DNA of 64,000 nucleotides from Heterodontus francisci. Its lineage: Eukaryota. The position numbers and the translations under genes are program-made. This document shows positions 6,401 to 56,490 of the stretch, piece after piece; the stretch's first letter is position 1; each line of letters opens with the position of its first letter. The stretch covers positions 248,001-312,000 of the forward strand of contig NW_027140453.1 in assembly GCF_036365525.1 (NCBI RefSeq), written 5' to 3'. The notes beneath the pieces were generated by a model. The model made no database searches and was not told the origin of the DNA. It was given only the letters and a program-made list of their open reading frames with translations.

Positions 6401-9400
6401 CCATCTGTCCTTCCCTCCCTGTCACTCCGTCTCTCTCCTTCTATCTCTGTCTCTCTCTGTCCCTCCATCTGTCTTTCCCTCTCTGTCTCTCCCACTCTCT
6501 CCTTCTATCTATCGCTCTCTCTCTGTCCCTCCATCTGTATTTCCCTCTCTGTCTCACCCCCTCTCTCCTTCTATCTATCGCTCTCTCTCTGTCCCTCCAT
6601 CTGTATTTCCCTCTCTGTCTCACCCCCTCTCTCATTCCATCTCTGCCTCTCACTCTCGGTCTCTCCATCTGTCTTTCCATCTCTGTCTCTCCATCTCTCT
6701 CCTTCTCTCTCTCTCTGTCTCTTCATCTGTCTCCCCCCCCCCCCCACATCGTCACTCCCTCTTTCTCCTTCTAACTCTGTCTCTGCCTCGCTCTCTGTCT
6801 CTCTCTCTATCCCTCCATCTGTCCTTCCCTCCCTGTCACTCCATCTCTCTCCTTCTCTCTCTGTCTCTCTCTCTGTCCCTCCATCTGTCTTTCCCTCCCT
6901 GACACTCCCTCTCTCTCTCCTTCTATCTCTGTCTCTCTCTATCCCTCCATCTGTCTTTCCCTCTCTGTCTCTCCCTCTCTCTCCTTCTATCTCTCCCTCT
7001 CTCTCTGTCCCGCCATCTGTCTTTCCCTCCCTGACACTCCCTCTCTCTCCCTTTTTTCTCTGTCTCTCTCTCTCTGTCCCTGCATCTGTCTTTCCCTCCC
7101 TGACACTCCCTCTCTCTTCTTCTCTCTCTGTCTCTCTCTCTGTCCCTCCATCTGTCTTTCCCTCCCTGACACTCCCTCTCTCTCCTTCTATCTCTGTCTC
7201 TCTCTATCCCTCCATCTGTCTTTCCCTCTCTGTCTCTCCCTCTCTCTCCTTCTATCTCTCCCTCTCTCTCTGTCCCGCCATCTGTCTTTCCCTCCCTGAC
7301 ACTCCCTCTCTCTCCCTTTTTTCTCTGTCTCTCTCTCTGTCTGTCCATCTGTCTTTCCCTACCTGTGACTCCCTCACTGCTTGCATCTCTGCCTCTCTCT
7401 CTCTTTCTCTCCATCTGTCTTTCACTCTGTCTCTCCCACTCTCTCCTTCTCTCTCTGTCACTCCATCAGTCTCGCCGCTCCCGCCCCCACCATCACTCGA
7501 TCTCTCTCCTTCTCTCTCTGCCTCTCTCTCTGTCCCTCCATCTGTCCTTCCCTCCCTGTCACTCCATCTCTCTCCTTCTCTCTCTGCCTCTCTCTCTGTC
7601 CCTCCATCTGTCTTTCCCTCCCTGACACTCCCTCTCTCTCCTTCTATCTCTGTCTCTCTCTATCCCTCCAACAGTCTTCCCCTCTCTGTGACTCCCTCTC
7701 TCTCCTTCCATGTGTCTTTCTCTCTCTCTGTCTCTCCACCTGCCTTTCCCTCCCTGACACTACCTCTCTCTCCTTCTATCTCTCTCTCTCTCTCTCTATC
7801 CCTCCATCAGTCCTTCCCTCCCTGTCACTCCATCTCTCTCCTTCTCGCTCTGTCTCCCACTCTGTCGCTCCATCTGCCTTTCCCTTCCTGACACACCACC
7901 TCTCTCCTTCTCTCTCTGTCTCTCACTCTGTCCCTCCATCTGTCTTTCCCACCCAGACACACCCTCTCTCTCATCTATCTCTGTCTCTCACTCCATCCCT
8001 CCATCTGTCCTTCCCTCCCTGTTACTCCATCTCTCTCCTTCTATCGCTGTCTCTCTCTCTCTCTGTCCCTCCATCTGTCCTTCCCTCCCTGTCACTCCAT
8101 CTCTCTCCTTCTATCTATCTCTCTCTCTCTCTCTGTCCCTCCATCTGTCTTTCCCTTTCAGTCCCTCCCTCTCTCTCCTTCTATCTCTGTATCTCTCTCT
8201 CTCTGCCCCTCCATCTGTCCTTCCCTCCCTGTCACTCCATCTCTCTCCTTCTCTCCGTCTCTCTCACTCTGTCCCTACATCTGTCTTTCTCTCCCTGACA
8301 CTCCCTCTCTCTCCTTCCATCTCTGCCTCTCACTCTCTGTCCCTCCAACAGTCTTTCCCTCTCTGTGACTCCCTCTCTCTCCTTCTCTCTCTGTCTTTCT
8401 ATCTGTCGCTCCATCTATCTTTCCCTGCCTGTCACTCCCTCTCTCTCATTTCATCTCTGCCTCTCACTCTCTGTCCCTCCATCTGTCCTTCCCTCCCAGT
8501 CACTCCATCTCTCTCCTTCTCTCTCTGTCTCTCACTCTGTCCCTCCATCTGTCCTTTCCTTCCTGGCAATCCCTCTCTTTCCTTCTATCTCTGTCTCTGC
8601 CACTCTCTCTGTCTCTCTCTCTCTGTCCCTCCATCTGTCTTTCCCTCTCTGTCTCTCCGTCTCTCTATCCCACCATCTGTCCTTCCCTCCCTGTCACTCC
8701 CCCTCTCTCCTTCTCTCTCTGTCTCTCTCTCTCTGTCTCTCCATCTGTCTTCCCCTCCCCGTCACACCCTCTCTCTCCTTCTATCTCTATCTCTGTCTCT
8801 CTCTCTGTCCCTCCACTTCTCTTTCCCGCCCTGTCACTCCCACTGTCTGCTTCTATCTCTGTCTCTCTCTCTCAATCCCTCCATCTGCCCTTCCCTCCCT
8901 GTCACACCCTCTCTGTCCTTCTCTCTCTGTCTTTCTCTCTGTCTCTCCATCTGTCTTTCCCTGCCTGTAACTCCATCTCTCACCTTCCATCACTGCCTCT
9001 CACTCTCTGTCTCTCCATATCTCTCCTTCTATCTCTGTCTCTCTCTCTCTGTCCCTCCATCTGTCTTCTCCCCCCCTCCGTCACGCCATCTCTCTGCTTC
9101 TATCTCTGTCTCTCTCCCTCTGTCCCTCCATCTGTCCTTCCCTCATTGTCACTACATCTCTCTCCTTCTATCTCTCTCACTCCCTCTCTTACCCTCCATC
9201 TGTCTTTCCCTCTCTGTCCCTCCCTCTCTCTCCTTCTATCACTGTCTCTATCTCTCTGTCTCTCCATCTGCCCTTCCCTCTTTGACACTCCCTCTCTCTC
9301 CTTCTCTCTCTGTCTTTCTATCTGTCGCTCCATCTGTCCTTCCCTCCCAGTCACTCCATCTCTCTCCTTCTCTCCGTCTCTCTCTCTCTGTCTCTCCATC

Positions 9401-12400
9401 TGTCTTCCCCACCCCCTGTCACTCACTCTCACTCCTTTTATCTCTATCTCTGTCTCTCTCTCTGTCCCTCCATCTATATTACCCTCTCTGTCACTCCCAC
9501 CCTCTCCTTCTATCTCTCTCCCTCACACTCTGTCCCTCCATCTGTCTTTCTCTCCCTGACACTCCCTCTCTCTCCTTCCATCTCTGCCTCTCACTCTCTG
9601 TCTCTCCATCTGTCTTTCCCTCTCTGTCTCTCCATCTCTCTCCTTCTCTCTCTCTCTGTCTCTTCATCTGTCTCCCCCCCCACCCCGTCACTCCCTCTTT
9701 CTCTTTCTAACTCTGTCTCTGCCTCGCTCTCTGTCTCTCTCTCTATCCCTCCATCTGTCCTTCCCTCCCTGTCACTCCATCTCTCTCCTTCTCTCTCTGC
9801 CTCTCACTCTATCCCTCCATCTGTCTTCCCCTCCGCGTCACACCCTCTCTCTCCTTCTATCTCTATCCCTGTCTATCTCTCTGTCCCTCCACTTCTCTTT
9901 CCCTCCCTGTCACACCCACTCTCTGCTTCTATCTCTGTCTCTCTCTCTCAATCCCTCCATCTATCCTTCCCTCCCTGTCACACCCTCTCACTCCTTCTCG
10001 CTCTGTCTCTCTCTCTGGCTCTCCATCTGTCTTTCCCTGCCTGTCACTCCCTCTCTCACCTTCCATCACGGCCTCTCACTCTCTGTCTCTCCAACTCTCT
10101 TTCCCTCTCTATCTCTGCATATCTTTCCTTCTATCTCTGTCTCTCTCCCTCTGTCCCTCCATCTGTCCTTCCCTCATTGTCACTCCATCTCTCTCCTTCT
10201 ATCTCTCTCTCTTTCCCTCCATCTGTCTTTCCCTCTCTGTCCCTCCCTCTCTCTCCTTCTATCTCTGTCTCTCTCTCTATCCCTCCATCTGCCATTCCCT
10301 CCCTGAAACTCCCTCTCTTTCCTTGCCTCTCTGTCTCTCACTCTATCCCTCCATCGTCCTTCCCACACTGTCACTCCATCTCTCTCCTTCTATCGCTGTC
10401 TCTCTCTCTCTCTCTCTGTCCCTCCATCTGTCCTTCCTTCCCTGTCACTCCATCTCTCTCCTTCTATCTATCTATCTCTCTCTCTCTCTGTCCCTCCATC
10501 TGTCTTCCCTCTCAGTCCCACCCTCTCTCTCCTTCTATCTCTGTATCTCTCTCTCTGCCCCTCCATCTGTCCTTCCCTCCCTCTCACTCCATCTCTCTCC
10601 TTCTCTCCGTCTCTCTCACTCTGTCCCTACATCTGTCTTTCCCTCCCTGACACTCCCTCTCTCTCCTTCCATCTCTGCCTCTCACTCTCTGTCCCTCCAT
10701 CTGTCCTTCCCTCCCCCTCACTCCATCTCTCTCCTTCTCTCCGTCTCTCTCTCTCTGTCTCTCCATCTGTCTTCCCCACCCCCTGTCACTCACTCTCACT
10801 CCTTTTATCTCTATCTCTGTCTCTCTCTCTGTCCCTCCATCTATATTACCCTCTCTGTCACTCCCACCCTCTTCTTCTATCTCTCTCCCTCACACTCTGT
10901 CCCTCCATCTGTCTTTCTCTCCCTGACACTCCCTCTCTCTCCTTCCATCTCTGCCTCTCACTCTCTGTCTCTCCATCTGTCTTTCCCTCTCTGTCTCTCC
11001 ATCTCTCTCCTTCTCTCTCTCTCTGTCTCTTCATCTGTCTCCCCCCCACCCCGTCACCCCCTCTTTCTCTTTCTAACTCTGTCTCTGCCTCGCTCTCTGT
11101 CTCTCTCTCTATCCCTCCATCTGTCCTTCCCTCCCTGTCACATCATCTCTCTCCTTCTCTCTCTGCCTCTCACTCTATCCCTCCATCTGTCTTCCCCTCC
11201 GCGTCACACCCTCTCTCTCCTTCTATCTCTATCCCTGTCTATCTCTCTGTCCCTCCACTTCTCTTTCCCTCCCTGTCACACCCACTCTCTGCTTCTATCT
11301 CTGTCTCTCTCTCTCAATCCCTCCATCTATCCTTCCCTCCCTGTCACACCCTCTCTCTCCTTCTCGCTCTGTCTCTCTCTCTGGCTCTCCATCTGTCTTT
11401 CCCTGCCTGTCACTCCCTCTCTCACCTTCCATCACGGCCTCTCACTCTCTGTCTCTCCAACTCTCTTTCCCTCTCTATCTCTGCATATCTTTCCTTCTAT
11501 CTCTGTCTCTCTCCCTCTGTCCCTCCATCTGTCCTTCCCTCATTGTCACTCCATCTCTCTCCTTCTATCTCTCTCTCTTTCCCTCCATCTGTCTTTCCCT
11601 CTCTGTCCCTCCCTCTCTCTCCTTCTATCTCTGTCTCTCTCTCTATCCCTCCATCTGCCATTCCCTCCCTGAAACTCCCTCTCTTTCCTTGCCTCTCTGT
11701 CTCTCACTCTATCCTTCCATCGTCCTTCCCACACTGTCACTCCATCTCTCTCCTTCTATCGCTGTCTCTCTCTCTCTCTCTCTGTCCCTCCATCTGTCCT
11801 TCCTTCCCTGTCACTCCATCTCTCTCCTTCTATCTATCTATCTCTCTCTCTCTCTGTCCCTCCATCTGTCTTCCCTCTCAGTCCCACCCTCTCTCTCCTT
11901 CTATCTCTGTATCTCTCTCTCTGCCCCTCCATCTGTCCTTCCCTCCCTCTCACTCCATCTCTCTCCTTCTCTCCGTCTCTCTCACTCTGTCCCTACATCT
12001 GTCTTTCTCTCCCTGACACTCCCTCTCTCTCCTTCCATCTCTGCCTCTCACTCTCTGTCCCTCCATCTGTCCTTCCCTCCCCCTCACTCCATCTCTCTCC
12101 TTCTCTCCGTCTCTCTCTCTCTGTCTCTCCATCTGTCTTTCCCACCCCCTGTCACTCACTCTCTCTCCTTTTATCTCTATCTCTGTCTCTCTCTCTGTCC
12201 CTCCATCTGTATTACCCTCTCTGTCACTCCCACCCTCTCCTTCTATCTCTCTCCCTCACACACTGGCCCTCCATCTGTCTTTCTCTCCCTGACACTCCCT
12301 CTCTGTACTTCTCTCTCTGTCTTTCTCTCTGTCTCTCCATCTGTATTTCCCTCTCTGTCTCTCCATCTCTCTCCTTCTCTCTCTCTCACTGTCTCACCAT

Positions 12401-14120
12401 CTGTCTCCCCCCCCACCTCGTCACTCCCTCTTTCTCCTTCTAACTCTGTCTCTGTCTCTCTCTCTCTATCCCTCCATCTGTCCTTCCCTCCCTGTCACAC
12501 CCTCTCTGTCCTTCTCTCTCTGTCTTTCTCTCTGTCTCTCCATCTGTCTTTCCCTGCCTGTCACTGCATCTCTCACCTTCCATCACGGCCTCTCACTCTC
12601 TGTCTCTCCATCTCTCTTTCCCTCTCTGTCTCTCCATATCTCTCCTTCTGTCTCTGTCTCTCTCTCTCTCTGTCCCTCCATCTGTCTTCTCCCCCCCCCC
12701 CTCCGTCACTCCATCTCTCTCCTTCTATCTCTGTCTCTCTCCCTCTGTCCCTCCATCTGTCCTTCCCTCATTGTCACTCCATCTCTCTCCTTCTATTTCT
12801 CTCACTCTCTCTCTTACCCTCCATCTGTCTTTCCCTCTCTGTCCCTCCCTCTCTCTCCTTCCATCACTGTCTCTATCTCTCTGTCTCTCCATCTGCCCTT
12901 CCCTCTTTGACACTCCCTCTCTCTCCTTGTCTCTCTGTCTCTCACTCTATCCCTCCATATGTCCTTCCCTCCCTGACACTCCCTCTCTCTCCTTCTCTCT
13001 CTGTCTTTCTATCTGTCGCTCCATCTATCTTTCCCTGCCAGTCACTCCATCTCTCTCCATCTCTCCGTCTCTCTCTCTCTGTCTCTCCATCTGTCTTTCC
13101 CACCCCCTGTCACTCACTCTCACTCCTTTTATCTCTATATCTGTCTCTCTCTCTGTCCCTCCATCTGTATTACCCTCTGTGTCACTCCCACCCTCTCCTT
13201 CTATCTCTCTCCCTCACATTCTGTCCCTCCATCTGTCTTTCTCTCCCTGACACTCCCTCTCTCTCCTTCTCTCTCTGTCTTCCTCTCTGTCTCTCCATCT
13301 GTCTTTCCCTGCCTGTCACGCCATCTCTCTCCTTCCATCTCTGCCTCTCATTCTCTGTCTCTCCATCTGTCTTTGCCTCCCTGTCTCTCCATCTCTCTCC
13401 TTCTCTCTCTCTCTGTCTCTTCATCTGTCTCCCTCCACCACCCCGTCACTCCCTCTGTCTCCTTCTAACTCTGTCTCTGTCTCGCTCTCTGTCTCTCTCT
13501 CTATCCCTCCATCTGTCCTTCCCTCCCTGTCACTCCATCTCTCTCCTTCTCTCTCTGTCTCTCACTCTGTCTCTCCATCTGTCCTTTCCTTCCTGGCAAT
13601 CCCTCTCTTTCCTTCTATTTCTGTCTCTGCCACTCTCTCTGTCTCTCTCTCTGTCCCTCCATCTGTCTTTCCCTCTCTGTCTCTCCGTCTCTCTATCCCT
13701 CCATCTATCCTTCCCTCCCTGTCACTCCATCTCTCTCCTTCTCTCTCTGTCTCTCTCTCTGTCCCTCAATTTGTCTTTCCCTTCCTGATACTCGCTCGCT
13801 CTCCTTCTATCTTTGTCTCTGCCACTCTCTCTGTCTCTCTGTATGGCCCTCCATCTGTCATTCCCTTTCTGTCTTTCCGTCTCTCTCCTGCTATCTCTGT
13901 CTCTGCCTCTCTCTCTGTGTCTCTCTCTGTCCCTCCAGCTATCATTCCCTCTCTGTCACTCCCTCTCTCCTTCTCTTTGTCTGTCCCTCTCTCTCCTTCT
14001 CTCTCTCCTTCTCTCTCTCTCTTTACCCCCCTATCACTCCTTGCCCTATCTCTCTGTCGCTGAGACTCTCTATATCTCTCCCCCTCTATCTCTCTCTGTC
14101 CCTCGTTCTCTCTGTCTTTA
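3496..14120 (+). repeat. About 10.6 kb polypyrimidine (CT-rich) degenerate minisatellite with higher-order duplications
   Basis: Recurrent unit such as ctctgtccctccatctgtctttccctccctgtcactccatctctctccttctat. Near-identical blocks are offset by 1366 bp (10177 vs 11543) and about 1168 bp (4575 vs 5743). Gap at 3792-3928. Confidence 0.95.
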
Positions 14121-15480: not shown

Positions 15481-16493
15481 AACACAAGTGTGATTTATTA
15501 AACTTTAACACAACAATGTTTGTTACTCAGTCGTGTAAAGTGCATTGCACTGTTACTGACCTTTACTCCAATCCCTCAATCCCACTTCATCTCGGGGAGA
15601 TTGTTATAAGATTCACCCCATCCTTACAAACATAAATATTACCCACATCAAACCAGTGCAATTAGAAATTGTACACAGCTGCTGATAGGTAGTAACAAGA
15701 CCGAAGGGAATGTTCAGTCTTCCATCTCTAACCCAGGCAAATATATGTCTTCATTTATACTGATATCTGTCTGTCTGTCTGAATGGAATCAGATAGAGGC
15801 CAGACCTCTCCAATAACAACATTGTTTGACCATTTCACTTTTTATGGCAGACAGAAAGTTTTCATCTACCTTGTCTCTATTATTCTGCAGTGATGTCCTG
15901 GAACTGAGATGATTGACCTCCAACAACCACAACCATCTTCCTTTGTGCTCAGTATAATTCCAACCAGCAGATTCCCACTGACTTCAGTTTTACTCGGTCT
16001 CCTCGCTGTCACACTCGGTCAAACGCGGCATTGATGTTAAGGTCAGTCTCTCTTTCCCGTAGCAGACAGGAGTGAATCGTTCCCTTTGACCCGTTGAGTC
16101 CTGAACATGCTCTGCTTCTTCACAGCCAGATAAAGGACTGTACACGGCCGATTAATGTAGCCCCTCAAACACTCCGAGTGCAGGTTCAGCTTAGGAACAG
16201 AGTACAGTTCCTTCTAAATTCTCTCTCTGTCTTCCTCTCTCCGTCTCTTCCTCCTGCTCTCTCTGACACTAGGAGTGAGACAGAGGGAGAGAGGGTTAGA
16301 TATGCAGACAGAGAGCGGGCAGTAGAGAGGGACAGGGTTGGAGAGAGAGAGAGAGATTGTTGGGGTGGATTGAAAGGGAGAATGTAAGATATATGAATTT
16401 GATGTAATCCTTCACTGCTGTGTGCACAAACATATAGGAGATAGGTATGGAGATGGAAACATCAGGAGAGATCCAGAGGCAATAGCCTCTATT

Positions 16494-18464
16494 TTAAACA
16501 TCCATCAAGCTATTCCTTTCTCTTTCACTTTCTCCATCACTTTCTCCATCAGCTATCACTTTCTCCATCAGCCTGCCATGGGGAACCTTATCAAACGCCT
16601 TACTGAAGTCCATGTATATGTCATCGACAGCCCTTCCCTCATCAATCAACTTTGTCACTTCCTCAAAGAATTCTATTAAGTTGGTAAGACATGACCTTCC
16701 CTGCACAAAACCATGTTGCCTATCACTGATGAGCCCATTTTCTTCCAAATGGGAATAGATCCTATCCCTCAGTATCTTCTCCAGCATCTTCCCTACCACT
16801 GACGTCAGGCTCACCGGTCTATAATTACCTGGATTATCCCTGCTACCCTTCTTAAACAAGGGGACAATATTAACAATTCTCCAGTCCTCCGGGACCTCAC
16901 CCGTGTTTAAGGATGCTGCAAAGATATCTGTTAAGGCCCCAGCTATTTCCTCTCTCGCTTCCCTCAGTAACCTGGGATAGATCCCATCCGGACCTGGGGA
17001 CTTGTCCACCTTAATGCCCTTTAGAATACCCAACACTTCCTCCCTCCTTATGCCGACTTGACCTAGAGTAATCAAACATCTGTTCCTAACCTCAACATCC
17101 GTCATGTCCCTCTCCTCGGTGAATACCGATGCAAAGTACTCGTTTAGAATCTCACCCATTTTCTCTGAGTCCAAGCATAACATTCCTCCTTTGTCCTTTA
17201 GTGGGCCAATCCTTTCTCTAGTTACCCTCTTTCTCCTTATATATGAATAAAAGGCTTTGGGATTTTCCTTAACCCTGTTTGCTAAAGATATTTCATGACC
17301 CCTTTTAGCCCTCTTAATTCCTCGTTTCAGATTGGTCCTACATTCCCGATATTCTTTCAAAGCTTCGTCTTTCATCAGCCGCCGAGACCTTATGTATGCT
17401 TCCTTTTTCCTCTTAGCTAGTCTCACAATTTCACCTGTCATCCATGGTTCCCTAATCTTGCCATTTCTGTCCCTCATTTTCACAGGAACATGTCTCTCCT
17501 GCACGCTAATCAACCTCTCTTTAAAAGCCTCCCACATATCACATGTGGATTTACCTTCAAACAGCTGCTCCCAATCTACATTTCCCAGCTCCTGCCGAAT
17601 TTTGGTATAGTTGGCCTTCCCCCAATTTAGCACTCTTCCTTTAGGACCATTCTCGTCTTTGTCCATGAGTATTTTAAAGCTTACGGAATTGTGATCACTA
17701 TTCCCAAAGTAGTCCCCTACTGAAACTTCAACAACCTGGCCGGGCTCATTCCCCAACACCAGGTCCAGTATGGCCCCTTCCCGAGTTGGACTATTTACAT
17801 ACTGCTCTAGAAAACCCTCCTGGATGCTCCTTACAAATTCTGCTCCATCTGGACCTCTAACACTAAGTGAATCCCAGTCAATGTTGGGAAAATTAAAATC
17901 TCCTATCACCACCACCCTGTTGCTCCTACATCTTTCCATAATCTGTTTACATATTTGTACCTCTATCTCACGCTCGCTGTTGGGAGGCCTGTAGTACAGC
18001 CCCAACATTGTTACCGCACCCTTCCTATTTCTGAGTTCTGTCCATATTGCCTCACTGCTCGAGTCCTCCATAGTGCCCTCCTTCAGCACAGCTGTGATAT
18101 CCTCTTTGACCAGTAATGCAACTCCTCCACCCCTTTTACCTCCCTCTCTATCCCGCCTGAAGCATCGATATCCTGGGATATTTAGTTGCCAATCATGCCC
18201 TTCCCTCAACCAAGTCTCAGTAATAGCAATAACTTCATACTCCCAGGTACTAATCCAAGCCCTAAGTTCATCTGCCTTACCTACTACACTTCTTGCATTA
18301 AAACAAATGCACCTCAGACCACCAGTCCCTTTATATTCATCATCTGCTCCCTGCCTGCTCTTCCCCTTAGTCACACTGACTTCATTATCTAGTTCCTTAC
18401 AGGCTTTTGTTACTACCTCCTTACTGTCAACTGACCTCAATTGGTTCCCATCCCCCTGCCACAT
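16494..18464 (-). CDS. CR1 ORF2 (APE endonuclease + N-terminal RT), 3'-truncated
   Basis: CFNARS, IAITETWL, YRPP, GDFN, LDLVL, SDHN (APE); NYRPVSLTS, QHGF, DFSKAFD (RT). Last ~20 codons are not LINE-derived. Confidence 0.92.
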   Translation of the reverse strand: MWQGDGNQLRSVDSKEVVTKACKELDNEVSVTKGKSRQGADDEYKGTGGLRCICFNARSVVGKADELRAWISTWEYEVIAITETWLREGHDWQLNIPGYRCFRRDREGGKRGGGVALLVKEDITAVLKEGTMEDSSSEAIWTELRNRKGAVTMLGLYYRPPNSEREIEVQICKQIMERCRSNRVVVIGDFNFPNIDWDSLSVRGPDGAEFVRSIQEGFLEQYVNSPTREGAILDLVLGNEPGQVVEVSVGDYFGNSDHNSVSFKILMDKDENGPKGRVLNWGKANYTKIRQELGNVDWEQLFEGKSTCDMWEAFKERLISVQERHVPVKMRDRNGKIREPWMTGEIVRLAKRKKEAYIRSRRLMKDEALKEYRECRTNLKRGIKRAKRGHEISLANRVKENPKAFYSYIRRKRVTRERIGPLKDKGGMLCLDSEKMGEILNEYFASVFTEERDMTDVEVRNRCLITLGQVGIRREEVLGILKGIKVDKSPGPDGIYPRLLREAREEIAGALTDIFAASLNTGEVPEDWRIVNIVPLFKKGSRDNPGNYRPVSLTSVVGKMLEKILRDRIYSHLEENGLISDRQHGFVQGRSCLTNLIEFFEEVTKLIDEGRAVDDIYMDFSKAFDKVPHGRLMEKVIADGESDGESERERNSLMDV

Positions 18465-19411
18465 TAGTTTAAACCCTCCCCAACAGCGTTAGCAAAAGCA
18501 CCTCCAAGGACATTGGTTCCAGTCCGGCCCAGGTGTAGACCGTCCAATTTGTAATAGTCCCACCTCCCCCAGAACTGGTCCCAATGTCCCAAAAATCTGA
18601 ACCCCTCCTTCCTGCACCATCTCTCAAGCCATGCATTCATCCTGACTATTCTTTCATTTTTACTCTGACGATCACGTGGCACTGGTAGTAATCCTGAGAT
18701 TACTACCTCTGAGGTCCTACTTTTTAACTTGGCTCCTAACTCCCTAAACTCTGCTTGTAGGACCTCATCCCGTTTTTTACCTATATCATTAGTGCCTATG
18801 TGCACAATGACAACTGGCTGTTCACCCTCCCCCTTTAGAATGTTCTGCAGCCGATCTGAGACGTCCCTGACCCGTGCACCTGGGAGGCAACATACCATTC
18901 GGGAGCCTCGTTTTCGACCACAGAACCGCCTATCTACTCCCCTTACAATCGAATCCCCTACGACTATAGCCCTTCCACTCTTTTTCCCGCCCTTCTGAAC
19001 AGCAGAGCCAGCCACGGTGCCATGGACCTGGCTACTGCTGCCTTCCCCTGGTGAGCCATCTCCCTCAACAGTATCCAAAACGGTATACTTGTTTTGGAGG
19101 GAGATGACCGCAGGGGACTCCTGAGCTGCCTTCCTGCTCTTTCTCTGCCTTTTGGTCACCCATTCCCTTTCTCCCTCAGCAATCCTAATCTGCGGTGTGA
19201 CCAATTCACTAAACGTGCTATCCACGACCTCCTCAGCATCGCGCATGCTCCAAAGTGAGTCCATCCGCAGCTCGAGAGCCGTCATGCGGTCTAACAAGAG
19301 CTGCAGCTGGACACACTTCCTGCACGTGAAGGAGTCAGGGTCATCAGCCATGTCCCTGAGCTCCCACATTGAGCAAGAGGAGCATGATACGGGTCTGAGA
19401 TCTCCTGCCAT
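18464..19411 (-). CDS. CR1 ORF1 (zinc finger/leucine zipper + SGNH esterase)
   Basis: CSSC...CRKC zinc finger; VVGDS, PGA, HIGTND and DGLH SGNH blocks. Confidence 0.92.
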   Translation of the reverse strand: MAGDLRPVSCSSCSMWELRDMADDPDSFTCRKCVQLQLLLDRMTALELRMDSLWSMRDAEEVVDSTFSELVTPQIRIAEGEREWVTKRQRKSRKAAQESPAVISLQNKYTVLDTVEGDGSPGEGSSSQVHGTVAGSAVQKGGKKSGRAIVVGDSIVRGVDRRFCGRKRGSRMVCCLPGARVRDVSDRLQNILKGEGEQPVVIVHIGTNDIGKKRDEVLQAEFRELGAKLKSRTSEVVISGLLPVPRDRQSKNERIVRMNAWLERWCRKEGFRFLGHWDQFWGRWDYYKLDGLHLGRTGTNVLGGAFANAVGEGLN

Positions 19412-19590
19412 TTTTAATCTTAAGTTTAAACTTAGTTAAATGAAAAAGGAACGAAAAGTTTTTACCAATCACAATAAAACCAGAGAAATCGAAAAAGCCT
19501 TACCTTATAAACACCCCACCGAGTCCTTTTTTTTTGGTTAGAGGAGGAGGGCGGGTGGGAGACACTACAAGTGTGGTATCTCGGGTTCAG

Positions 19591-20553
19591 AAACCGCCCA
19601 AATATATAGTGTTTTACTTACCCAGCAGCCCCCTGGCCTCCGCGGAAAAACAAAAGGAAATTAAATTTACTTTCAAACTGACTTTCCCAGCTGCTCACTC
19701 GCTCACACTCTGCTCCCGAAAAAGCTGCTGCACTGAAAGGAAAGTTATTTTAAACCGCCCAAATATATAGTGTTTTACTTACCCAGCAGCCCCCGGCCTC
19801 CGCCGAAAAACAAAAGGATTTTAAATTTACTTTCAAACTGACTTTCCCAGCTGCTCACTCGCTCACACTCTGCTCCCGAAAAAGCTGCTACACTGAAAGG
19901 AAAGTTATTTTAAACCGCCCAAATATATAGTGTTTTACTTACCCAGCAGCCCCCTGGCCTCCGCCGAAAAACAAAAGGATTTTAAATTTACTTTCAAACT
20001 GACTTTCCCAGCTGCTCACTCGCTCACACTCTGCTCCCGAAAAAGCTGCTGCACTGAAAGGAAAGTTATTTTAAACCGCCCAATTATATAGTGTTTTACT
20101 TACCCAGCAGCCCCCTGGCCTCCGCCGAAAAACAAAAGGAAATTAAATTTACTTTCAAACTGACTTTCCCAGCTGCTCACTCGCTCACACTCTGCTCCCG
20201 AAAAAGCTGCTGCACTGAAAGGAAAGTTATTTTAAACCGCCCAAATATATAGTGTTTTACTTACCCAGCAGCCCCTGGCCTCCGCCGAAAAACAAAAGGA
20301 TTTTAAATTTACTTTCAAACTGACTTTCCCAGCTGCTCACTCGCTCACACTCTGCTCCCGAAAAAGCTGCTGCACTGAAAGGAAAGTTATTTTAAACCGC
20401 CCAAATATATAGTGTTTTACTTACCCAGCAGCCCCCGGCCTCCGCCGAAAAACAAAAGGAAATTAAATTTACTTTCAAACTGACTTTCCCAGCTGCTCAC
20501 TCGCTCACACTCTGCTCCCGAAAAAGCTGCTGCACTGAAAGGAAAGTTATTTT
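19591..20553 (-). repeat. Six tandem ~161-bp monomers forming the CR1 5' UTR
   Basis: aaaccgccca unit starts at 19591, 19752, 19912, 20073, 20234 and 20394; copies are near-identical. Confidence 0.95.
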
Positions 20554-23450: not shown

Positions 23451-23599
23451 ATGAATCTCCCTCTCCCCTTTCCACATTGAGGCTGAAATGGGCTTTGTTT
23501 GCAACAATTACATCATCCAGGTCTGATCAGATACTCGGAGCTTTTGTGAACGAATTCCCATCAACCTCAACAAGTTGTGCAATTTCCCCATTTGTCAGT

Positions 23600-24045
23600 G
23601 TTTTACCCCCTTCTGATGTTGTTCAATTTGTTAGTGTTTTTCCCCTGCTGAAGTTGTTGCTGTATTTGTTGTTTTTTTCACTGAAGTTGTTGTTGAACCT
23701 GTTGGTGTCTTTGCCCAGCTGAAGTTGCTGCTGCATTGCTTGATGTACTTCCCTAAAGTTGTTGGTGAAGTTGTAGGTGTTTCCCCTGCTGACGTTGTGA
23801 GAATAGTAGTTGTTTTTTTCCTCCCCGCTTCCCCTAATGTTGCTGGATTTGTTGGTGATTGCTTCCTGAAGTTGTTGTTGGATTTGTTGGTGTAATCTTC
23901 CTGTTGAAGTTGTTGTGATGTTTGTTTTTAATTCTCCTGAAGAAGTTGTTGAATTTGTTGGTGTCGTTCTGCTCCTGACGTTGTTGTATTTGTTGTTCTT
24001 TTCCCCCATCCTGAAGTAGTTGTTGAATTCCCCTGTTCCTCCTGA
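23600..24045 (-). repeat. CAA-rich minisatellite (minus orientation)
   Basis: gaagttgttgttgaatttgttggtg units. Confidence 0.85.
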
Positions 24046-24249
24046 ACATGTTACACTCACCACCCCTCATGACTCAGCTTACACTGTAACTGTATCCCTG
24101 AGTGAAATCTCTCTAATGTGCAGGTAATATCTGCTTCCAGCGTCTCCCTGGGACCCTGTTCCACAGAGCGACCTCCTGCTCATTGAAATAACCTTTCTGC
24201 AGGTTCGTTTCCAGGTCAAATAATTAAAACATTAAGTAACTATTACAAC

Positions 24250-24860
24250 AAAGAGTATTGTCCCTTTTCCCTCAAGGGGGCTGGAATAGAAAGCGCTGGA
24301 TGTTGTGTTACTGTTGTATGCAGCTCGGATTAGACCCCTTCTGGAGAAACCATGTTCAGTTCTGTGCATCAAAACTCAGGAAGGATGTCTCAGCCTTGGA
24401 GGTAATGACACCAGGTCTAAAAGGGTTAAATTAGCTTCACAGTTTGCATGGCCTAATGTTATATTCTCTTAAGTGTAGGAGATTAAAGGGTGATCTCATT
24501 GAAATATTTAGGATGATTAAAGGATTCGATGGTGTTAATGGACAGAAACAATTTCCTCTGCTGGGGGAGTCCAGGGCAAGGTGGGGTGGGGCTGTTCAGG
24601 AGTGATGTCAGGAAACGCTGGTTCACACAGCTGGTAGTGGAAATCTGGAATTTTCTCCCTCAAAAGCTCGACAGATGGGGGTGTGAGGGGGGTTAATCAG
24701 ACATTACAAAGCAGAGCTTGCTAGATTGATGTTAGGTGAGGGTATTAAATGATATGGAACCCAGATGGGCAAATGGAAATAAGTTGTAGATGATCCATGA
24801 TCTCCCTGAATGGCGGAACAAGCTTGAATGGGCCGAATGGCCCATTCCTGCTGCCAGGAT
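24250..24860 (+). mobile_element. Decayed CR1 LINE 3' end
   Basis: Degenerate RP-LE and GDLIE motifs; 3' UTR gggccgaatggccc. Confidence 0.7.
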
Positions 24861-25239
24861 TTCTCATTTTCCTCTGTCAGGATTTGAGTGAGCTGGATTA
24901 TCCAGGGTGGAAGCACTGACCAGAAAAGAATGGAGCAGCACGAGGTTTGGGGAATGCTGGGCAGACCCACCATGCACAGTCACATCCCTTCTGATACCAT
25001 CCCTCAGCAATCATTTAAGAGTGAGTGTTCCCTCCCAGAACAAAAACACTGGATTTCCATGATCAGATGGGAAAGTCATTCCAGCAAAATCAAAACCTTC
25101 TTGAGACGGTCATACTCAGCGTTCATAGATGTGTTGAGCAGACAGAGACTGCAATAAAACTTTAAAGACACAGTTTACAATCAGATTTACAATCACACCG
25201 GGTGGTCAGGGAGTCAAACACGTTAAAAACACGTTAAAC

Positions 25240-25922
25240 ACGGAAAAACACCAAAACATTCAGCAACAACCTCAACAGGAAAAACACCAACAAATTCAAC
25301 AATAACTTCAGGAGAAAAACAACAACATCGAGAAAAAACACCAATAGATTCAACATCAAATTTAGCAGGAGACAAACAGGAAAAAATACAAAAACAACTG
25401 CACCAGAAAAATAACCCACGAACAAGCTCAGCAATAACTTTAACAGGAGAAAAATAAAGTACGAATAAAATCAACAACAACTTCAACAGGAGAAAAACAC
25501 CAACAAAGTCAACAACAACTTTAGCAGGAGAAAAACACCAACAAATTCAACAACAACCTCAAGAGGAAAAGCACCAACAAATTCAACAACAAGAAAAACA
25601 CCAACAAATTCAACAATAACTTCAGCAGGAGAAAACAACAACAAATTCAAAACAACAACCTCAACAGGGAAAACACCATCAAATTCAACAACAACTTCAA
25701 CAGGAAAAACATCAACAAATTCAACAACAACTTCAGCAGGAGAAAAACACCAACAATTTCAATAACAACCTCAACAGGAAAAACACCAAAAAATTCAACA
25801 ACAACCTCAACAGGAAAAAAAGCAACAAATGCAACAACAACTTCAACAGGAAAAACACCAACAAAGTCAACAACAACTTCAGCTGGAGAAAAAAACAACA
25901 AATTCAACAACAACCTCAGCAG
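25240..25922 (+). repeat. CAA-rich minisatellite (plus orientation)
   Basis: cagcaggagaaaaacaccaacaaattcaacaacaac units. Confidence 0.9.
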
Positions 25923-26059
25923 GCTCTGCACGTTGTCTGTTCGTGGGATCTTGCCTTGTAGAAACTGGCTGCCACACTTCCTGCATTACAGCAGTGGCTG
26001 TACTTCGAAACAGTCGCAAAGAATATGGGAATAGCAAAACATATGAGATTAGCAAAACT

Positions 26060-45425: not shown

Positions 45426-48400
45426 GAACACAGACCTTAGAACATTACAGCGCAGTCCAGGCGCTTCGGCCCTCGATGTTGCGGCGACCTGTGAAACCAT
45501 CTGACCTAAACTATACCATTTTCATCCATATGTCTATCCAATGACCACTTAAATGCCCTTAAAGTTGGCGAGTCTACTACTGTTGCAGGCAGGGCGTTCC
45601 ACGCCCCTACTACTCTCTGAGTAAAGAAACTACCTCTGACATCTGTCCTATATCTATCACCCCTCAACTTAAAGCTATGTTCCCTCGTGTTTGCCATCAC
45701 CATCTGAGGAAAAAGACTCTCACTATCCAACCTATCTAATCCTCTGATTATCTTATATGTCTCTATTAAGTCACCTTTCCTCCTCCTTCTCTCCAACGAA
45801 AACAACCTCAAGTCCCTCAGCCTTTCCTCATAAGACCTTCCCTCCACACCAGGCAACAACCTAGTAAATCTCCTCTGTACCCTTTCCAAAGCTTCCACAT
45901 CCTTCCTATAATACGGTGACCAGAACTGCACGCAATACTCCAGGTGCGGCCGCACCAGAGTTTTGTACAGCTGCAGCATGACCTCGTGGCTCCGAAACTC
46001 GATCCCCCTACTAATAAAAACTAACACACCGTATGCCTTCTTAACAGCCCTATTAACCTGGGTGGCAACTTTCAGGGATTTATGTACCTGGACACCAAGA
46101 TCTCTCTGCTCATCGACACTACCAAGAATCTTCCCATTAGCCCAGTACTCTGCATTCCTGTTACTCCTTCCAAAGTGAATCACCTCACACTTTTCCGCAT
46201 TTAACTCCATTTTCCATCTCTCAGCCCAGCTCTGCAGCCTATCTATGTCCATCTGTAACCAACAACATCCTTCGGCAATATCCACAACTCCACCGACATT
46301 TGTGTCATCCACAAATTTACTAACCCACCCTTCTACACCCTCATCCAGGTCATTTATAAAAATGACAAACAGCAGTGGCCCCCAAACAGATCCTTGCGGT
46401 ACACCACTAGTAACTAAACTCCAGGATGAACATTTACCATCAACCACCACCCTCTGTCTTCTTTCAGCGAGCCAATTTCTGATCCAAATCACTAAATCAC
46501 CTTCAATCCCATACTTCCGTATTTTCTGCAATAGCCTACCGTGGGGAACCTTACCAAACGCCTTACTGAAATCCATATACACCACATCCACGGCTTTACC
46601 CTCATCCACCTGTTTGGTCACCATCTCAAAAAACTCAATAAGGTTTGTGAGGCACGACCTACCCTTCACAAAACCGTGCTGACTATCGCTGATGAACTTA
46701 TTCTTTTCAAGATGATTATAAATCCTATCTCTTATAACCTTTTCCAACATTTTACCCACAACCGAAGTAAGGCTCACAGGTCTATAATTACCAGGGCTGT
46801 CTCTACTCCCCTTCCTGAACAAGGGGACAACATTTGCTATCCTCCAGTCTTCCGGCACTTTTCCTGTCAACAATGACGACATAAAGATCAAGGACAAAGG
46901 CTCTGCAATCTCCTCCCTGGCTTCCCAGAGAATTCTAGGATAAATCTCATCTGGCCCAGGGGACTTATCTATTTTCACACTTTCCAAAATTGCTAACACC
47001 TCCTCCTTGTGAACCTCAATCCCATCTAGCCTAGTAGTCTGTATCTCAGTATTCTCCTCGACAACATTTTCTTTCTCTACTGTAAATACTGATGCTAAAT
47101 ATTCATTTAACGCAACCCCTATCTCCTCTGATTCCACACACAACTTCCCACTACTATTCTTGATTGGCCCTAATCTAACTCTAGTCATTCTTTTATTCCT
47201 GATATACCTATAGAAAGCCTTAGGGTTTTCCTTGATCCTATCCACCAATGACTTCTCGTGTCCTCTCCTCGCTCTTCCAAGCTCTCCCTTTCGATCCTTC
47301 CTGGCTAGCTTGTAACTCTCAAGCGCCCAAACTGAGCCTTCACGTCTCATCCTAACATAAGCCTTCTTCTTCCTCTTGACAAGCGCTTCAACTTCTTTAG
47401 TAAACCACGGCTCCCTCGCTCGACAACTTCCTCCCTGCCTGACAGGTACATACTTATCAAGGACACGCAGTAGCTGCTCCTTGAATAAGCTCCACATTTC
47501 GATTGTGCCCATCCCCTGCAGTTTCCTTCCCCATCCTACGCATCCTAAATCTTGCCTAATCGCATCATAATTTCCTTTCCCCCAGCTATAATTCTTGCCC
47601 TGCTGTATATGCCTGTCCCTGCCCATTGCTAAGGTAAACCTAACCGAATTGTGATCACTATCACCAAAGTGCTCACCTACATCTAAATCTAACACCTGGC
47701 CGGGTTCATTACCCAGTACCAAATCCAATGTGGCATCGCCCCTGGTTGGCCTGTCTACATACTGTGTCAGAAAACCCTCCTGCACACACTGGACAAAAAC
47801 TGACCCATCTAAAGTACTCAAACTATGGTATTTCCAGTCAATATTTGGAAAGTTTAAGTCCCCCATAACAACTATCCTGTTACTCTCGCTGCTGTCGAGA
47901 ATCATCTTTGCTATCCTCTCCTCTACATCTCTGGAACTATTCGGAGGTCTAGATTAGATTAGATTAGACATACAGCACTGAAACAGGCCCTTCGGCCCAC
48001 CTAATCTGTGCCGACCATCAACCACCCATTTATACCAATCCTACACTAATCCCATATTCCTACCAAACATCCCCACCTGTCCCTATATTTCCCTACCACC
48101 TACCTATACTAGTGACAATTTATAATGGCCAATTTACCTACCAACCTGCAAGTCTTTTGGCTTGTGGGAGGAAACCGCAGCACCCGGAGAAAACCCACGC
48201 AGACACAGGGAGAACTTGCAAACTGCACATCGGCAGTACCCAGAATCAAACCCGGGTCCCTGGAGCTGTGAGGCTGCAGTGCTAACCACTGTGCCACTGT
48301 GGCGCCCCACAGGTCCATAGAAAACTCCCAACACGGTGACCTCTCCTCTCCTGTTTCTAACCTCGGCCCATACTACCTCAGTGGACGAGTCCTCAAACGT

Positions 48401-49390
48401 CCTTTCTGCCGCCGTAATACTCTCCTTGATTAACAATGCCACACCCCACCCCCACCCCCCTCTTTTACCATCTTCTCTGTTCTTACTGAAAGATCTAAAT
48501 CCCGGAACCTGCAGCATCCATTCCTGTCCCTGCTCTACCCATGTCTCCGAAATGGCCACAACATCGAGATCCCAGGTACCAACCCATGCTGCAAGCTCAC
48601 CCACCTTATTCCGGATGCTGCTGGCGTTGAAGTAGACACACTTTAAACCAAGTTCTTGCTTGCCAGTGCCCTCTTGCGTCCCTGTAACCTTATCCCCTAC
48701 CTCACTACTTTCAACAGCCTGTACACTGGAACTACAATTTAGGTTCCCATCCCCCTGCTGAATAAGTTTAAACCCCCCCGAAGATCACTAGCAAATCTCC
48801 CCCCCCAGGATATTGGTACCCCTCTGGTTCAGGTGAAGACCATCCTGTTTGTAGAGGTCCCACCTACCCCAGAAAGAGCCCCAATTATCCAGGAAACCAA
48901 AACCCTCCCTCCTACACCATCCCTGCAGCCACGTGTTCAACTCCTCTCTCTCCCTATTCCTCGCTTCGCTAGCACGTGGCACGGGCAAGAACCCAGAGAT
49001 AACAACTCTGTTTGTTCTCGCTCTAAGCTTCCACCCTAGCTCCCTGAATTTCTGCCTTAAATCCACATCTCTCTTCCTACCTATGTCGTTGGTGCCTATG
49101 TGGACCACGACTTGGGGCTGCTCCCCCTACCCCTTAAGGATCCCAAAAACACTATCCGAGACATCACAAACCCTGGCACCTGGGAGGCAACACATCAACC
49201 GTGAGTCTCTCTCGTTCCCACAGAACCTCCTCTCTGTTCCCCTAACTATGGAGTCCCTAATGTCTAATGCTCTGCTCCTCTTCCCCCTTCCCTTCTGAGC
49301 AACAGGGACAGACTCTGCACCAGAGACCTGTACCCCATTGCTTACCCCTGGTAAGTCGTCCCCCCCCCAACAGTATCCAAAACGGTATAT
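45426..49390 (-). mobile_element. Near full-length CR1 LINE (second subfamily), 5'-truncated within ORF1, EN domain interrupted by a SINE
   Basis: ORF1 esterase remnants (HIGTND, DGLH) at 48773-49390. ORF2 frame from 48766 to about 48311, resuming at about 47950 and running to 45506 with a complete RT. 3' UTR present. Confidence 0.95.
47951..48310 (-). mobile_element. tRNA-derived V-SINE (HE1-like) with (TCTAA)n tail, inserted in CR1 ORF2
   Basis: tRNA-like head ggcacagtggttagcactg; V-domain ctgcgtgggttttctccgggtgctgcggtttcctcccaca; imperfect TSD aggtcta/aggtcca (47945-47951, 48311-48317). Confidence 0.88.
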
Positions 49391-54039: not shown

Positions 54040-55400
54040 TGAGTGGGGTCAGTGAGTGGAGTCAGTGAGTGGAATCTATGAGTGGGGTCAGTGAGTGGTG
54101 TCACTCAGTTGAGTCAGTGAGTGAGGTCAGTGAGTGGGGTCAGTGAGTGGGGTCAGTGAGTGCGGTCAGTGACCGGGGTCAGTGAGCGGAGGCAGTGAGT
54201 GGAGTCTGTGAGTGGAGTCAGTGAGTGGGGTTAGTGAGCGGGGTTAGTGAGCGGGGTTAGTGGGGAGTCAGTGAGTGGGATCAGTAAGTGGGGTCAGTGA
54301 GTGGGGTTAGTGAGCAGGGTCAGTGGGGAGTCAGTGAGTGGGATCAGTAAGTGGAGTCAGTGAGTGGAGTCACTGAGTTGTGTCACTCACTGAAGTCAGT
54401 GAGTGAGGTCAGTGAGTGGGGTTAATGAGCAGGGACAGTGAGTGGAGGATGTTAGTGGAGTCCGTGAGTGGAGTCAGTGAGCAGAGGCAGTGAGTGGAGT
54501 CTAAGAGTGGGGTCAGTGAGTGGGGTCAGTGAGCGGGGACAGTGAGCGGGGACAGTCAATGGAGTCAGTGAGCGGGGTTAGTGAGTGGGGTTAGTGAGCG
54601 GGGTCAATGGGGAGTCAGTGAGTGGGATCAGTAAGTGGGGTCAGTGAGCGGGGTTAGTGAGCGGGGTCAGTGCGTGGGGTCAGTGAGTGGAGTCAGTGAG
54701 TGGAGTCACTGAGTGGTGTCACTCAGTGGAGTCAGTGAGTGAGGTCAGTGAGTGGAGTCAGTGGGCGGGGACAGTGAGTGGAGTCAGTGAGCGGGGTTAG
54801 TGAGCGGGGTTAGTGAGCGTAGTCAGTGAGTGGGGTCAGTGACAGGGGTTAGTGAGTGGGGTCAGTGCGTGTGGTCAGTGACTGGAGTCAGTGAGTGGAG
54901 TCACTCAGTGGAGTCAGTGAGTGAGGTCAGTAAGTGGGGTCAGTGAGTGTGGACAGTGAGTGGACTCAGTGAGTGGGGTCAGTGAGAGGAGTCAGTGAGT
55001 GGTGTCGGTGAGTGGAGTCAGTGAGCGGGGTCAGTCAGTGGGGTCAGTGAGTGGGGACAGTGAGTGGAGACAGTGAGTGGGGTCAGTCAGTGGTGTCAGT
55101 GACTGGGGTCAAAGAGAGGAGTCAGTGAGTGGTGTCAGTGGGTGGGGTCAGTGAGATGAGTCAGTGAGTGGGGTCACTGAGTGGGGTCACTGAGTGGGGT
55201 CACTGAGTGGGGTCCGTGAGTGGGGACAGTAAGTGGAGTCAGTGAGAGAGGACAGTGAGTGGAGTCAGTGAGTGGTGTCAGTGAGTGGGGTCAGTGTGTG
55301 GGGTCACTGAGTGGGGTCAGTGAGTGGAGTCAGTAAGTGGTGTCAGTGAGTGGGGTCAGTGAGTGGGGTCAGTGAGTGGGGTCAGTGAGGTGGGTCAATG
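54040..55400 (+). repeat. 13-bp G-rich minisatellite, about 100 copies
   Basis: gtcagtgagtgg(g/a) units. Confidence 0.95.
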
Positions 55401-56490
55401 ATTGGGGTCTATATCGATCGATCTATCTATCTATCTATCTCTCAATCTATCTATCTCTCAATNNNNNNNNNNNNNNNNNNNNNNNNNNNNNNNNNNNNNN
55501 NNNNNNNNNNNNNNNNNNNNNNNNNNNNNNNNNNNNNNNNNNNNNNNNNNNNNNNNNNNNNNNNNNNNNNNNNNNNNNNNNNNNNNNNNNNNNNNNNNNN
55601 NNNNNNNNNNNNNNNNNNNNNNNNNNNNTTCTATTGTTCCATTTGTCTATCCATCCATTGCTCTATCGATCCCTCCAGCTATCGATACATATCTCTATTT
55701 ATCTCTATTTATCTATTTATCTATTTACTCTGTCATCTATATATATTTGTCATCGATCGATTTATCTGGCTCTTGTCTGTCTAAGTGTATATCCATCCCT
55801 CTGTTGTTTATCATATATCTAACGTCATTGTTTACATCTCGCAGTTCCATCAGTGATATATCATGGTTTGCTATTTTGTTGATATTGTTGTATCTTCTTG
55901 TTCTCCTTCGATTCAGATTATATCAATACAATATTAATGATTAAAATGCTCCATCCACGTGATAAGGCTCTTTTCGTGAGGTAGCCTCTACATTTTAAGA
56001 ACAGATTACAAGGCAGGGTAAATGGGTTCATGATACAGTTGAAAGAATGGACGGAGGATTCTGACAAGGAGTTGCACAGAGCTCCCTATTCTACATGCCC
56101 CTGATGATTCATACAATGCAAATACGAGACAACTCCCCAGATAGGTCTCTCACTGGAACAGATTCCTAATTTGGCGGTTTTGAGCAACTGTTGACAATTA
56201 TTAACCAACTTGTCTTTCAGACACTCGGTGTCTTTTGAAGAACTTTCAAAGCATCTGGGAGTTAGGCCCAGGCAAGAATTTAACCCTTCAATTCTCGTTT
56301 AGGAGACAGGGAAAATAAATCTTTCTCAGCCTAAAACAAATAAGCCCCTTGATGCATCTTAGATAGTTATAGAATCATACAGCACTGACCAAGGTCATTC
56401 GATCAATCGAGCCTGGTCTGGCTGTTCGAAACAGTTACCCAAAATAAACAACATCATCCCTTGGCCATGGGCTGCAAGAAGTACAGAATC

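What the first reader, a model, noticed from the sequence alone, without database searches (positions are those of the whole stretch)
48604..48780. Second CR1 subfamily keeps the slippery heptamer but has no ORF2 start codon
This diverged element also ends ORF1 with GGT TTA AAC (TTTAAAC at 48772-48766), followed by GCAGGGGGATGGGAACC. Its -1 frame (LIQQGDGN...KCVYFNASSIRNK) is open into the endonuclease domain. It has ATT where the other copy has ATG, and no ATG, GTG or TTG until 48604, past the first EN motif. Keeping the heptamer but not the AUG independently favours frameshifting. Caveat: this copy is decayed (the ORF1 stop position reads TTA and an upstream G-run is frameshifted), so ATT could be a mutation.
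Basis: partly seen in the sequence, partly recalled or inferred. Interest (0 to 1): 0.7.

Follow-up and report, generated by a model that had tools for sequence, protein, structure and literature searches.

The report
Frameshift signal in CR1 retrotransposons
CR1, a very common jumping-gene family of vertebrates, keeps a virus-style 'slippery' sequence at the end of its first gene but usually no start codon for its second, which suggests that its reverse transcriptase is made by ribosomal frameshifting; this is inferred from sequence and not yet tested.

Summary
This decayed shark-type CR1 LINE has T TTA AAC at the end of ORF1, then a -1 frame that is open into the endonuclease, with ATT where the window's other CR1 has ATG. 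Contigs from four runs show the family has a TAA stop right after the heptamer (99% of depth). No ATG row is listed at that site, so ATT is very likely the majority; an ATG minority is not excluded. The signal reaches far beyond this copy. ORF1 proteins end Leu-Asn-stop in 70 of 74 members of the vertebrate clade, and the residue before avoids codons ending only in a purine (1 of 83), a DNA-level signature. A sister clade ends Gln-Gly-Asn or Ser-Lys-Asn, which fit the other classic slippery sites (protein evidence only). In 18 published consensus junctions, found by searching for the heptamer, from bony fish to crocodile, ATG follows in only 3. Best reading: ORF2 is made by -1 ribosomal frameshifting as an ORF1-ORF2 fusion (0.75). 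No stable 3' hairpin was found and nothing was tested at the bench. Nine literature searches found no report for CR1, but the early CR1 papers were not read.

The parts
48766..48772 (-). Slippery heptamer T TTA AAC, in ORF1 register (X XXY YYZ), last two ORF1 codons Leu-Asn
   Evidence: Leu-Asn invariant in 28 of 28 aligned ORF1 proteins
48763..48765 (-). ORF1 stop position; reads TTA in this copy, TAA in the family
   Evidence: 48764 differs in 98.9-99.8% of depth in 4 of 4 runs
48761..48763 (-). ATT, fourth codon of the -1 frame, where the other window copy has ATG
   Evidence: no difference row at 48761 among the 40 shown
48746..48755 (-). G-rich motif GGGGGATGGG, 10 nt 3' of the heptamer; candidate stimulator, or simply Gly-Asp-Gly codons
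   Evidence: same 10-nt spacing in both window copies and in 6 of 18 published junctions, one reading GGGGGAGGGG
48641..48760 (-). Open, variable linker between the shift site and the endonuclease domain, without ATG
48773..49389 (-). 5'-truncated, decayed ORF1 (SGNH/GDSL esterase domain); stop near 49128, extra G in the run 48806-48799
   Evidence: Lipase_GDSL_2 E 2.4e-13
45506..48640 (-). ORF2: APE endonuclease and reverse transcriptase, interrupted by an insert
   Evidence: Exo_endo_phos E 2.7e-08; RVT_1 E 1.1e-33
47951..48310 (-). 360-nt SINE-like insert with (AATCT)n tail, flanked by GGACCT/AGACCT
   Evidence: the SINE label is recalled, not from a library match
18462..18473 (-). Junction of the other CR1 copy: T TTA AAC TAA TG (heptamer plus overlapping stop-start)
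18464..19411 (-). Intact 315-aa ORF1 of the other copy, used as query

Best explanation
CR1 LINEs of this kind make ORF2 by programmed -1 ribosomal frameshifting. Ribosomes translate ORF1 to U UUA AAC. Most stop at the next codon and release ORF1p ending Leu-Asn. A minority slip back one base and continue through an open, variable linker into the endonuclease and reverse transcriptase, giving an ORF1-ORF2 fusion. The AUG in some shark subfamilies is then a dispensable state of a variable codon (ATG, ATT, GTT, GTG, GTA, GGT and others). Shown: heptamer, frame, stop, absence of AUG, conservation. Inferred: the slip, the fusion protein, its rate and its stimulator. This particular copy is dead.
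For: (1) Family letters: TAA stop at 98.9-99.8% of depth in 4 of 4 runs, no ATG row shown. (2) Leu-Asn are the invariant last residues in 28 of 28 ORF1 proteins at 46% mean column identity, in 83 of 130 distinct complete tails and in 70 of 74 leaves of the vertebrate clade (counted from the tree). (3) The residue before Leu-Asn varies (12 kinds, at least 29 changes on the tree) yet is E/Q/K/M/W in 1 of 83 and D/C/H/Y/N/F in 27; the five positions upstream give 96 against 32 (Fisher p 7e-13, relatedness not corrected). A fixed third-base T predicts this. (4) 8 of 8 tails ending Gly-Asn have Gln before, and 2 of 2 ending Lys-Asn have Ser, fitting G GGA AAC and A AAA AAC; PMC5009743 names these two with U UUA AAC among the shiftiest heptamers. 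(5) Four database proteins that run across the junction in the -1 frame read Phe-Lys-Leu with no Met next: stingray P0036, unnamed P0070, turtle P0123, stork P0250. They were found without the heptamer; T-TTA is expected in about 6% of cases from window codon usage. (6) 18 published junctions have the heptamer plus a stop (TAG 11, TAA 6, TGA 1) and ATG in 3. (7) Annotated ORF2 starts are scattered along the linker. (8) Control: 0 of 9 proteins of a separate, L2-like clade end LN, GN or KN.
Against: No stable hairpin 3' of either heptamer: z -0.36 to +1.64 over 10 folds; pseudoknots were not tested, and this copy is decayed. No Rfam match at the junction. The 18 published junctions were found by searching for the heptamer, from only the first 400 nt of each consensus, and several rows are poor; the unbiased upstream search returned only 2 CR1 rows, both with it. 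84 rows are hidden, including two A>C places in run X1, so an ATG minority is possible. At least three shark consensus rows, the other window copy and P0239 do have the overlapping ATG. Four duck and goose ORF2 entries start at a Met 16 residues before the EN motif. The Gly-Asn and Lys-Asn evidence is protein only, and 18 of 46 tails in that clade have none of the three dipeptides. No experiment.
Confidence: 0.75

Rival explanations
1. Termination-reinitiation. Ribosomes stop at the ORF1 stop and restart nearby: at the overlapping AUG where there is one (as in SART1), or at AUU, GUG or without an AUG (as proposed for mammalian L1). ORF2p is a separate protein, and the heptamer is a context element.
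For: The other window copy, P0239 and 3 of 18 published rows have TAATG. Coupled reinitiation is the documented route in SART1 and is proposed for L1 (passages of PMC5972666, PMC2881922, PMC1965478). ATT, GTG and ACG are near-cognate starts (recalled).
Against: The codon at that site is GGT, AGC, GCT, GAT, GAA, AGT and others in most rows. Reinitiation does not explain the third-base bias one codon before Leu-Asn or the Gln-Gly-Asn and Ser-Lys-Asn ends. No downstream structure of the SART1 kind was found.
Confidence: 0.12
2. Mixed use. Frameshifting is ancestral, but subfamilies with TAATG, or birds with a linker Met, also or mainly start ORF2 afresh, so the ATT subfamily frameshifts while others need not.
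For: ATG at the junction in several shark subfamilies; Met in the linker in duck, goose and ray proteins.
Against: Those subfamilies keep the exact heptamer and an open linker, which should decay if unused.
Confidence: 0.08
3. The conservation has nothing to do with translation of ORF2: Leu-Asn is a protein C-terminal signal, or TTTAAAC is a DNA or RNA binding site (it lies in the palindrome GTTTAAAC and also occurs in 5' UTRs).
For: TTTAAAC also occurs just upstream of ORF1 in the other copy and in two dogfish 5' UTRs. Leu-Asn caps the last helix.
Against: The related esterase clade, and the solved ORF1 esterase 4c1b, whose match ends before these positions, do without it. The palindrome is lost in GCTTTAAAC, ATTTAAAC and TTTTAAAC variants. 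This reading leaves ORF2 of AUG-less families without a start.
Confidence: 0.04
4. ATT is a private mutation of a decayed copy and the family has ATG.
For: The copy is decayed; one search hides 84 rows; none of the runs holds more than 54% of the stretch's words.
Against: The private change three bases away shows at about 99%, so a family ATG should have shown alike; ATT in a stingray and GTT in a sawfish consensus.
Confidence: 0.01

Closest known systems
CR1-clade LINEs with esterase ORF1 (PMC13343379, section 15 and supplement)
   Same: SGNH esterase ORF1, APE-RT ORF2, repeat array in the 5' UTR; near-identical junctions in rows PriPec_CR1-7, HypSab_CR1-6b and ScyCan_CR1-1a.
   Different: That survey has no occurrence of 'frameshift', 'overlap', 'start codon' or 'translation' in its main text; ORF2 is treated as a separate ORF.
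-1 programmed frameshifting of retroviruses, coronaviruses and LTR retrotransposons (PMC5009743, passages)
   Same: X XXY YYZ heptamer in the upstream frame, U UUA AAC; structural protein upstream, polymerase downstream in the -1 frame.
   Different: Host is a non-LTR element; no stable 3' hairpin found; a G-rich motif sits 10 nt downstream. The review's held text (300,000 of 449,034 characters) has 0 occurrences of CR1; its non-LTR case is a frameshift within HeT-A gag.
SART1 UAAUG stop-start coupling (Kojima 2005; seen only as described in PMC5972666, PMC3708506, PMC3894237)
   Same: The other window copy has the same UAAUG overlap and the same frame relation.
   Different: The AUG is absent here and in 15 of 18 published junctions; no downstream structure found.
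Mammalian L1 AUG-independent ORF2 translation (Alisch 2006; seen only as described in PMC1965478, PMC5972666, PMC5009743)
   Same: ORF2 can be made without an AUG.
   Different: L1 has a 63-nt spacer and separate proteins; here the frames overlap at a slippery site.

Membership tests
CR1 LINE with esterase ORF1 | SGNH/GDSL esterase ORF1 | tested here: met
   PDB 4c1b E 2e-38
CR1 LINE with esterase ORF1 | ORF2 with APE endonuclease and reverse transcriptase | tested here: met
CR1 LINE with esterase ORF1 | Placement in the CR1 clade by an RT tree | not tested
   No RT tree was built; the label rests on domain order and on matching junctions of rows named CR1
Classical -1 programmed frameshift | X XXY YYZ heptamer in register with the upstream ORF | tested here: met
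Classical -1 programmed frameshift | Downstream ORF in the -1 frame, open from the heptamer, no usable AUG | tested here: met
   the other copy is open but has an AUG
Classical -1 programmed frameshift | Heptamer conserved beyond what the protein needs | tested here: met
   DNA rows (selected by the heptamer)
Classical -1 programmed frameshift | Stable stem-loop 5-9 nt downstream | tested here: not met
   z -0.36 to +1.64 in both copies; so not filed as a classical member
Classical -1 programmed frameshift | Pseudoknot or trans-acting stimulator | not tested
   No pseudoknot prediction run; only two junction sequences were held as DNA
Classical -1 programmed frameshift | Transframe product shown by reporter or mass spectrometry | not testable with these tools
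   bench work
UAAUG stop-start coupling (SART1 type) | AUG overlapping the ORF1 stop | tested here: not met
   ATT in this copy, no ATG row; ATG in 3 of 18 published rows and in the other window copy
UAAUG stop-start coupling (SART1 type) | RNA structure downstream of the overlap | tested here: not met
L1-type reinitiation | Non-overlapping ORFs with a spacer | tested here: not met
   the -1 frame is open across the ORF1 stop

The most novel reading that the evidence does not exclude
All esterase-bearing CR1 LINEs of jawed vertebrates, and a sister clade that switches among U UUA AAC, G GGA AAC and A AAA AAC, express reverse transcriptase as a Gag-Pol-like ORF1-ORF2 fusion by -1 frameshifting. 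The slip is stimulated not by a classical pseudoknot but by the G-rich motif about 10 nt downstream, through a G-quadruplex or a bound protein. Annotated CR1 ORF2 start codons would be largely wrong.
Probability: 0.3. Interest if true: 0.9.

Novelty: new variant of a known kind. Interest (0 to 1): 0.78.

Why it matters
How the second ORF of LINEs is translated is described as an open question in the reviews read (PMC3894237, PMC3708506). The documented routes are stop-start coupling, AUG-independent reinitiation and 2A peptides. A conserved -1 frameshift in CR1, the dominant retrotransposon group of most vertebrates by PMC13343379, would add a retrovirus-like route with a fused ORF1-ORF2 protein. 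It would set the ORF1p:ORF2p ratio, change where CR1 ORF2 is annotated to begin, and offer a natural shift site whose stimulator is not a simple hairpin. It can be tested with one short reporter insert.

Tried and rejected
No whole genome is held for the window, so no copy-by-copy count was possible. Scans for CR1 DNA in metagenome, genome and viral contigs and plasmids gave nothing usable (two weak bacterial or viral esterase loci were ignored). Folding found no stable 3' or 5' hairpin; a G-quadruplex appeared in one of two folds only. Rfam gave one chance-level match far from the junction. The supplement of PMC4316615 gave only 3'-end matches, and one of its files was not searched. Supplement searches for GGGAAAC or AAAAAAC followed by a stop found no junction. 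A search by the G-rich motif returned 3 CR1 rows, all already seen, and 2 L2 rows. The ATG at 48750 is in the ORF1 frame and opens only Met-Gly-Thr-stop, so it is rejected as an ORF2 start. A longer-protein search for a natural fusion returned only two ORF2 proteins starting in the linker. Phe-Leu and Phe-Phe near the ends of some sister-clade tails might mark U UUU UUA sites; noted, not counted. Earlier scan findings: none returned.

Full report
Observation. On the minus strand the copy reads GGT TTA AAC TTA TTC AGC AGG GGG ATG GGA ACC, with TTTAAAC at 48772-48766 and ATT at 48763-48761. The -1 frame is open from 48784 through the first endonuclease motifs. Its first GTG is 48604 and its first ATG 48517. 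The other CR1 in the window has T TTA AAC TAA TG at 18473-18462. The two are 69% alike in DNA over the ORF1 end and 59-60% in protein. Pfam gives a GDSL/SGNH esterase for ORF1 and endonuclease plus reverse transcriptase for ORF2. This copy is dead: 5'-truncated near 49389, a stop and an extra G in ORF1, and a 360-nt insert at 48310-47951. Named nearest relatives are from sharks and rays.

Is ATT a private mutation? No genome is held, so I laid contigs of 4 of the 24 listed runs (four organisms, best word share 0.54) on 48500-49000 at 85% likeness. Position 48764 differs in 99.8, 98.9, 99.5 and 99.7% of depth, which turns TTA into the stop TAA. Positions 48760 and 48759 differ in 7-46%, which would fit ATT TGG CAG beside ATT CAG CAG if the two changes are linked. 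There is no row for 48761. The tool shows 40 rows and hides 84. The weakest shown row reaches 38% in its best run, and run X1 has two hidden A>C places of at least 5%. The ranking rule is not stated; my inference is that ATT is the majority and that an ATG minority of up to about a third is not excluded. None of the 40 shown rows falls in the heptamer.

Protein signature. Two searches gave 228 ORF1 relatives (88; the best 150 of 8854). I dropped 80 without the DGxH-type motif and 10 whose tail was under 22 or over 40 residues, leaving 138, or 130 distinct tails: 83 end Leu-Asn, 8 Gly-Asn, 2 Lys-Asn, 37 otherwise. On a tree built without the tail (129 leaves), the clade that holds the named sharks, rays, chimaera, a bony fish, frogs, a turtle and a swallow ends Leu-Asn in 70 of 74. 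A clade I take to be L2-like (label recalled) has none of the three ends in 9 of 9. The residue before Leu-Asn takes 12 forms and changes at least 29 times, yet is one of E, Q, K, M, W once and one of D, C, H, Y, N, F 27 times; the five positions upstream give 96 and 32 (p 7e-13, not corrected for relatedness). That is what a fixed T at the third base would give. All 8 Gly-Asn ends follow Gln and both Lys-Asn ends follow Ser, which fits G GGA AAC and A AAA AAC. PMC5009743 lists these with U UUA AAC among the shiftiest sites for mammalian ribosomes. The hosts of that sister clade are unnamed and its DNA was not seen; 28 of its 46 tails carry one of the three dipeptides near the end, against a background of 0.8% per position. 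The profile used included the Leu-Asn columns, a small bias.

The -1 frame elsewhere. Four database proteins run across the junction in the -1 frame, and all read Phe-Lys-Leu with no Met after it: P0036 (stingray), P0070 (unnamed), P0123 (painted turtle), P0250 (wood stork). Window codon usage gives about 0.06 for T-TTA by chance. Of 63 ORF2 hits, one (P0239) starts at the junction Met; other starts are scattered through the linker or lie past the first motif, and four duck and goose entries share a Met 16 residues before it. These starts are annotations, not measurements.

DNA elsewhere. The supplement of PMC13343379 shows only the first 400 nt of each consensus. TTTAAACTA matched 23 rows: 17 at the ORF1 end (read by eye; one begins at the heptamer) and 6 elsewhere. 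TTTAAACTGA added a lizard row. The 18 span, by their row names, a teleost, bowfin, coelacanth, frog, alligator, crocodile, lizard, chimaera, rays and sharks. The stop is TAG in 11, TAA in 6, TGA in 1. The next -1 codon is ATG in 3, ATT in a stingray row, GTT in a sawfish row, and GTG, GTA, GGT, AGC, GCT, GAT, GAA, GGG, AGG or AGT in the rest. This set is selected by the heptamer and several rows have indels, so it shows that AUG is dispensable where the heptamer is present, not how often the heptamer is present. A search by upstream codons found 2 CR1 rows, both with it. Lack of AUG in all outgroup rows suggests ATG is the derived state; no tree was built for this.

Stimulator. Ten folds 3' of the two window heptamers gave z from -0.36 to +1.64, so no stable hairpin; Rfam has no match there. 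What is shared is GGGGGATGGG exactly 10 nt after the heptamer in both window copies and in 6 of the 18 rows (shark, sawfish, chimaera, alligator twice, and crocodile with G for T). It may be an RNA signal or just Gly-Asp-Gly. This is the weak point of the mechanism.

Mechanism and rivals. Best: -1 frameshifting at U UUA AAC makes an ORF1-ORF2 fusion (0.75). Rivals: reinitiation at AUG or a near-cognate codon (0.12), mixed use (0.08), an unrelated constraint (0.04), private mutation (0.01). Because the hairpin test failed, I say it works like a classical -1 site and do not file it as one.

Literature. Nine searches listed no paper reporting a frameshift between CR1 ORF1 and ORF2; three were shown only in part (25 of 51, 25 of 92, 15 of 55) and one as 20 of 26. 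Seen: passages of PMC5009743 (first two thirds held; CR1 0 times), PMC2881922, PMC5972666, PMC3708506, PMC1965478, PMC2734521, PMC4255032, PMC11835228; part 1 of 3 and passages of PMC3894237; section 15, passages and supplement rows of PMC13343379; a supplement search of PMC4316615. Not held: Kojima 2005 and Kapitonov and Jurka 2003. The 1997 chicken CR1 paper was seen as a title only; the 1997 turtle paper is recalled and unseen. These, Repbase entries, cut supplement cells and closed bioRxiv supplements could hold an earlier suggestion.

Verdict. The evidence points to a frameshift signal kept across vertebrate CR1 elements, untested at the bench. New variant of a known kind; interest 0.78.

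Noticed in passing
window 27076 (-), 41027, 42628, 50758, 53075, 60474 (+): Six V-set gene segments ending YFCAWS or YSCAWS, each followed by a recombination signal with a 23-nt spacer (Pfam V-set for the two tested). The window looks like an antigen-receptor V cluster, probably T-cell receptor beta (recalled); one segment is inverted and one has a stop.
   Followed up: partly
window 19591-20553: Six 160-nt tandem copies, 97% alike, in the 5' UTR of the other CR1, which has an intact ORF1. PMC13343379 describes such arrays for elements lacking ORF1.
   Followed up: partly
window 16490-16572 and 1171-1824: The other CR1 copy is cut at its 3' end inside the reverse transcriptase with a short duplication; a 96%-identical fragment of the same subfamily lies at 1171-1824.
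   Followed up: no
window 47951-48310: SINE-like insert with a tRNA-like head and (AATCT)n tail inside the CR1 endonuclease; ARAGORN finds no tRNA.
   Followed up: partly
proteins P0231 and P0008: CR1 proteins filed under bacterial names (Carnobacterium, 98% identical to the other copy's ORF2 region; Pseudomonas), most likely fish DNA contaminating bacterial assemblies.
   Followed up: no
window 19424-19431: A second GTTTAAAC lies 13 nt before the ORF1 start of the other copy; two dogfish consensus 5' UTRs also carry it. Unexplained.
   Followed up: no
window 3953-14022, 23590-25923, 54040-55409: Long pyrimidine-rich 66-68-nt minisatellite, 36-nt AAC-rich repeats and a 13-nt satellite; they explain the long spurious ORFs in the first 14 kb.
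   Followed up: no
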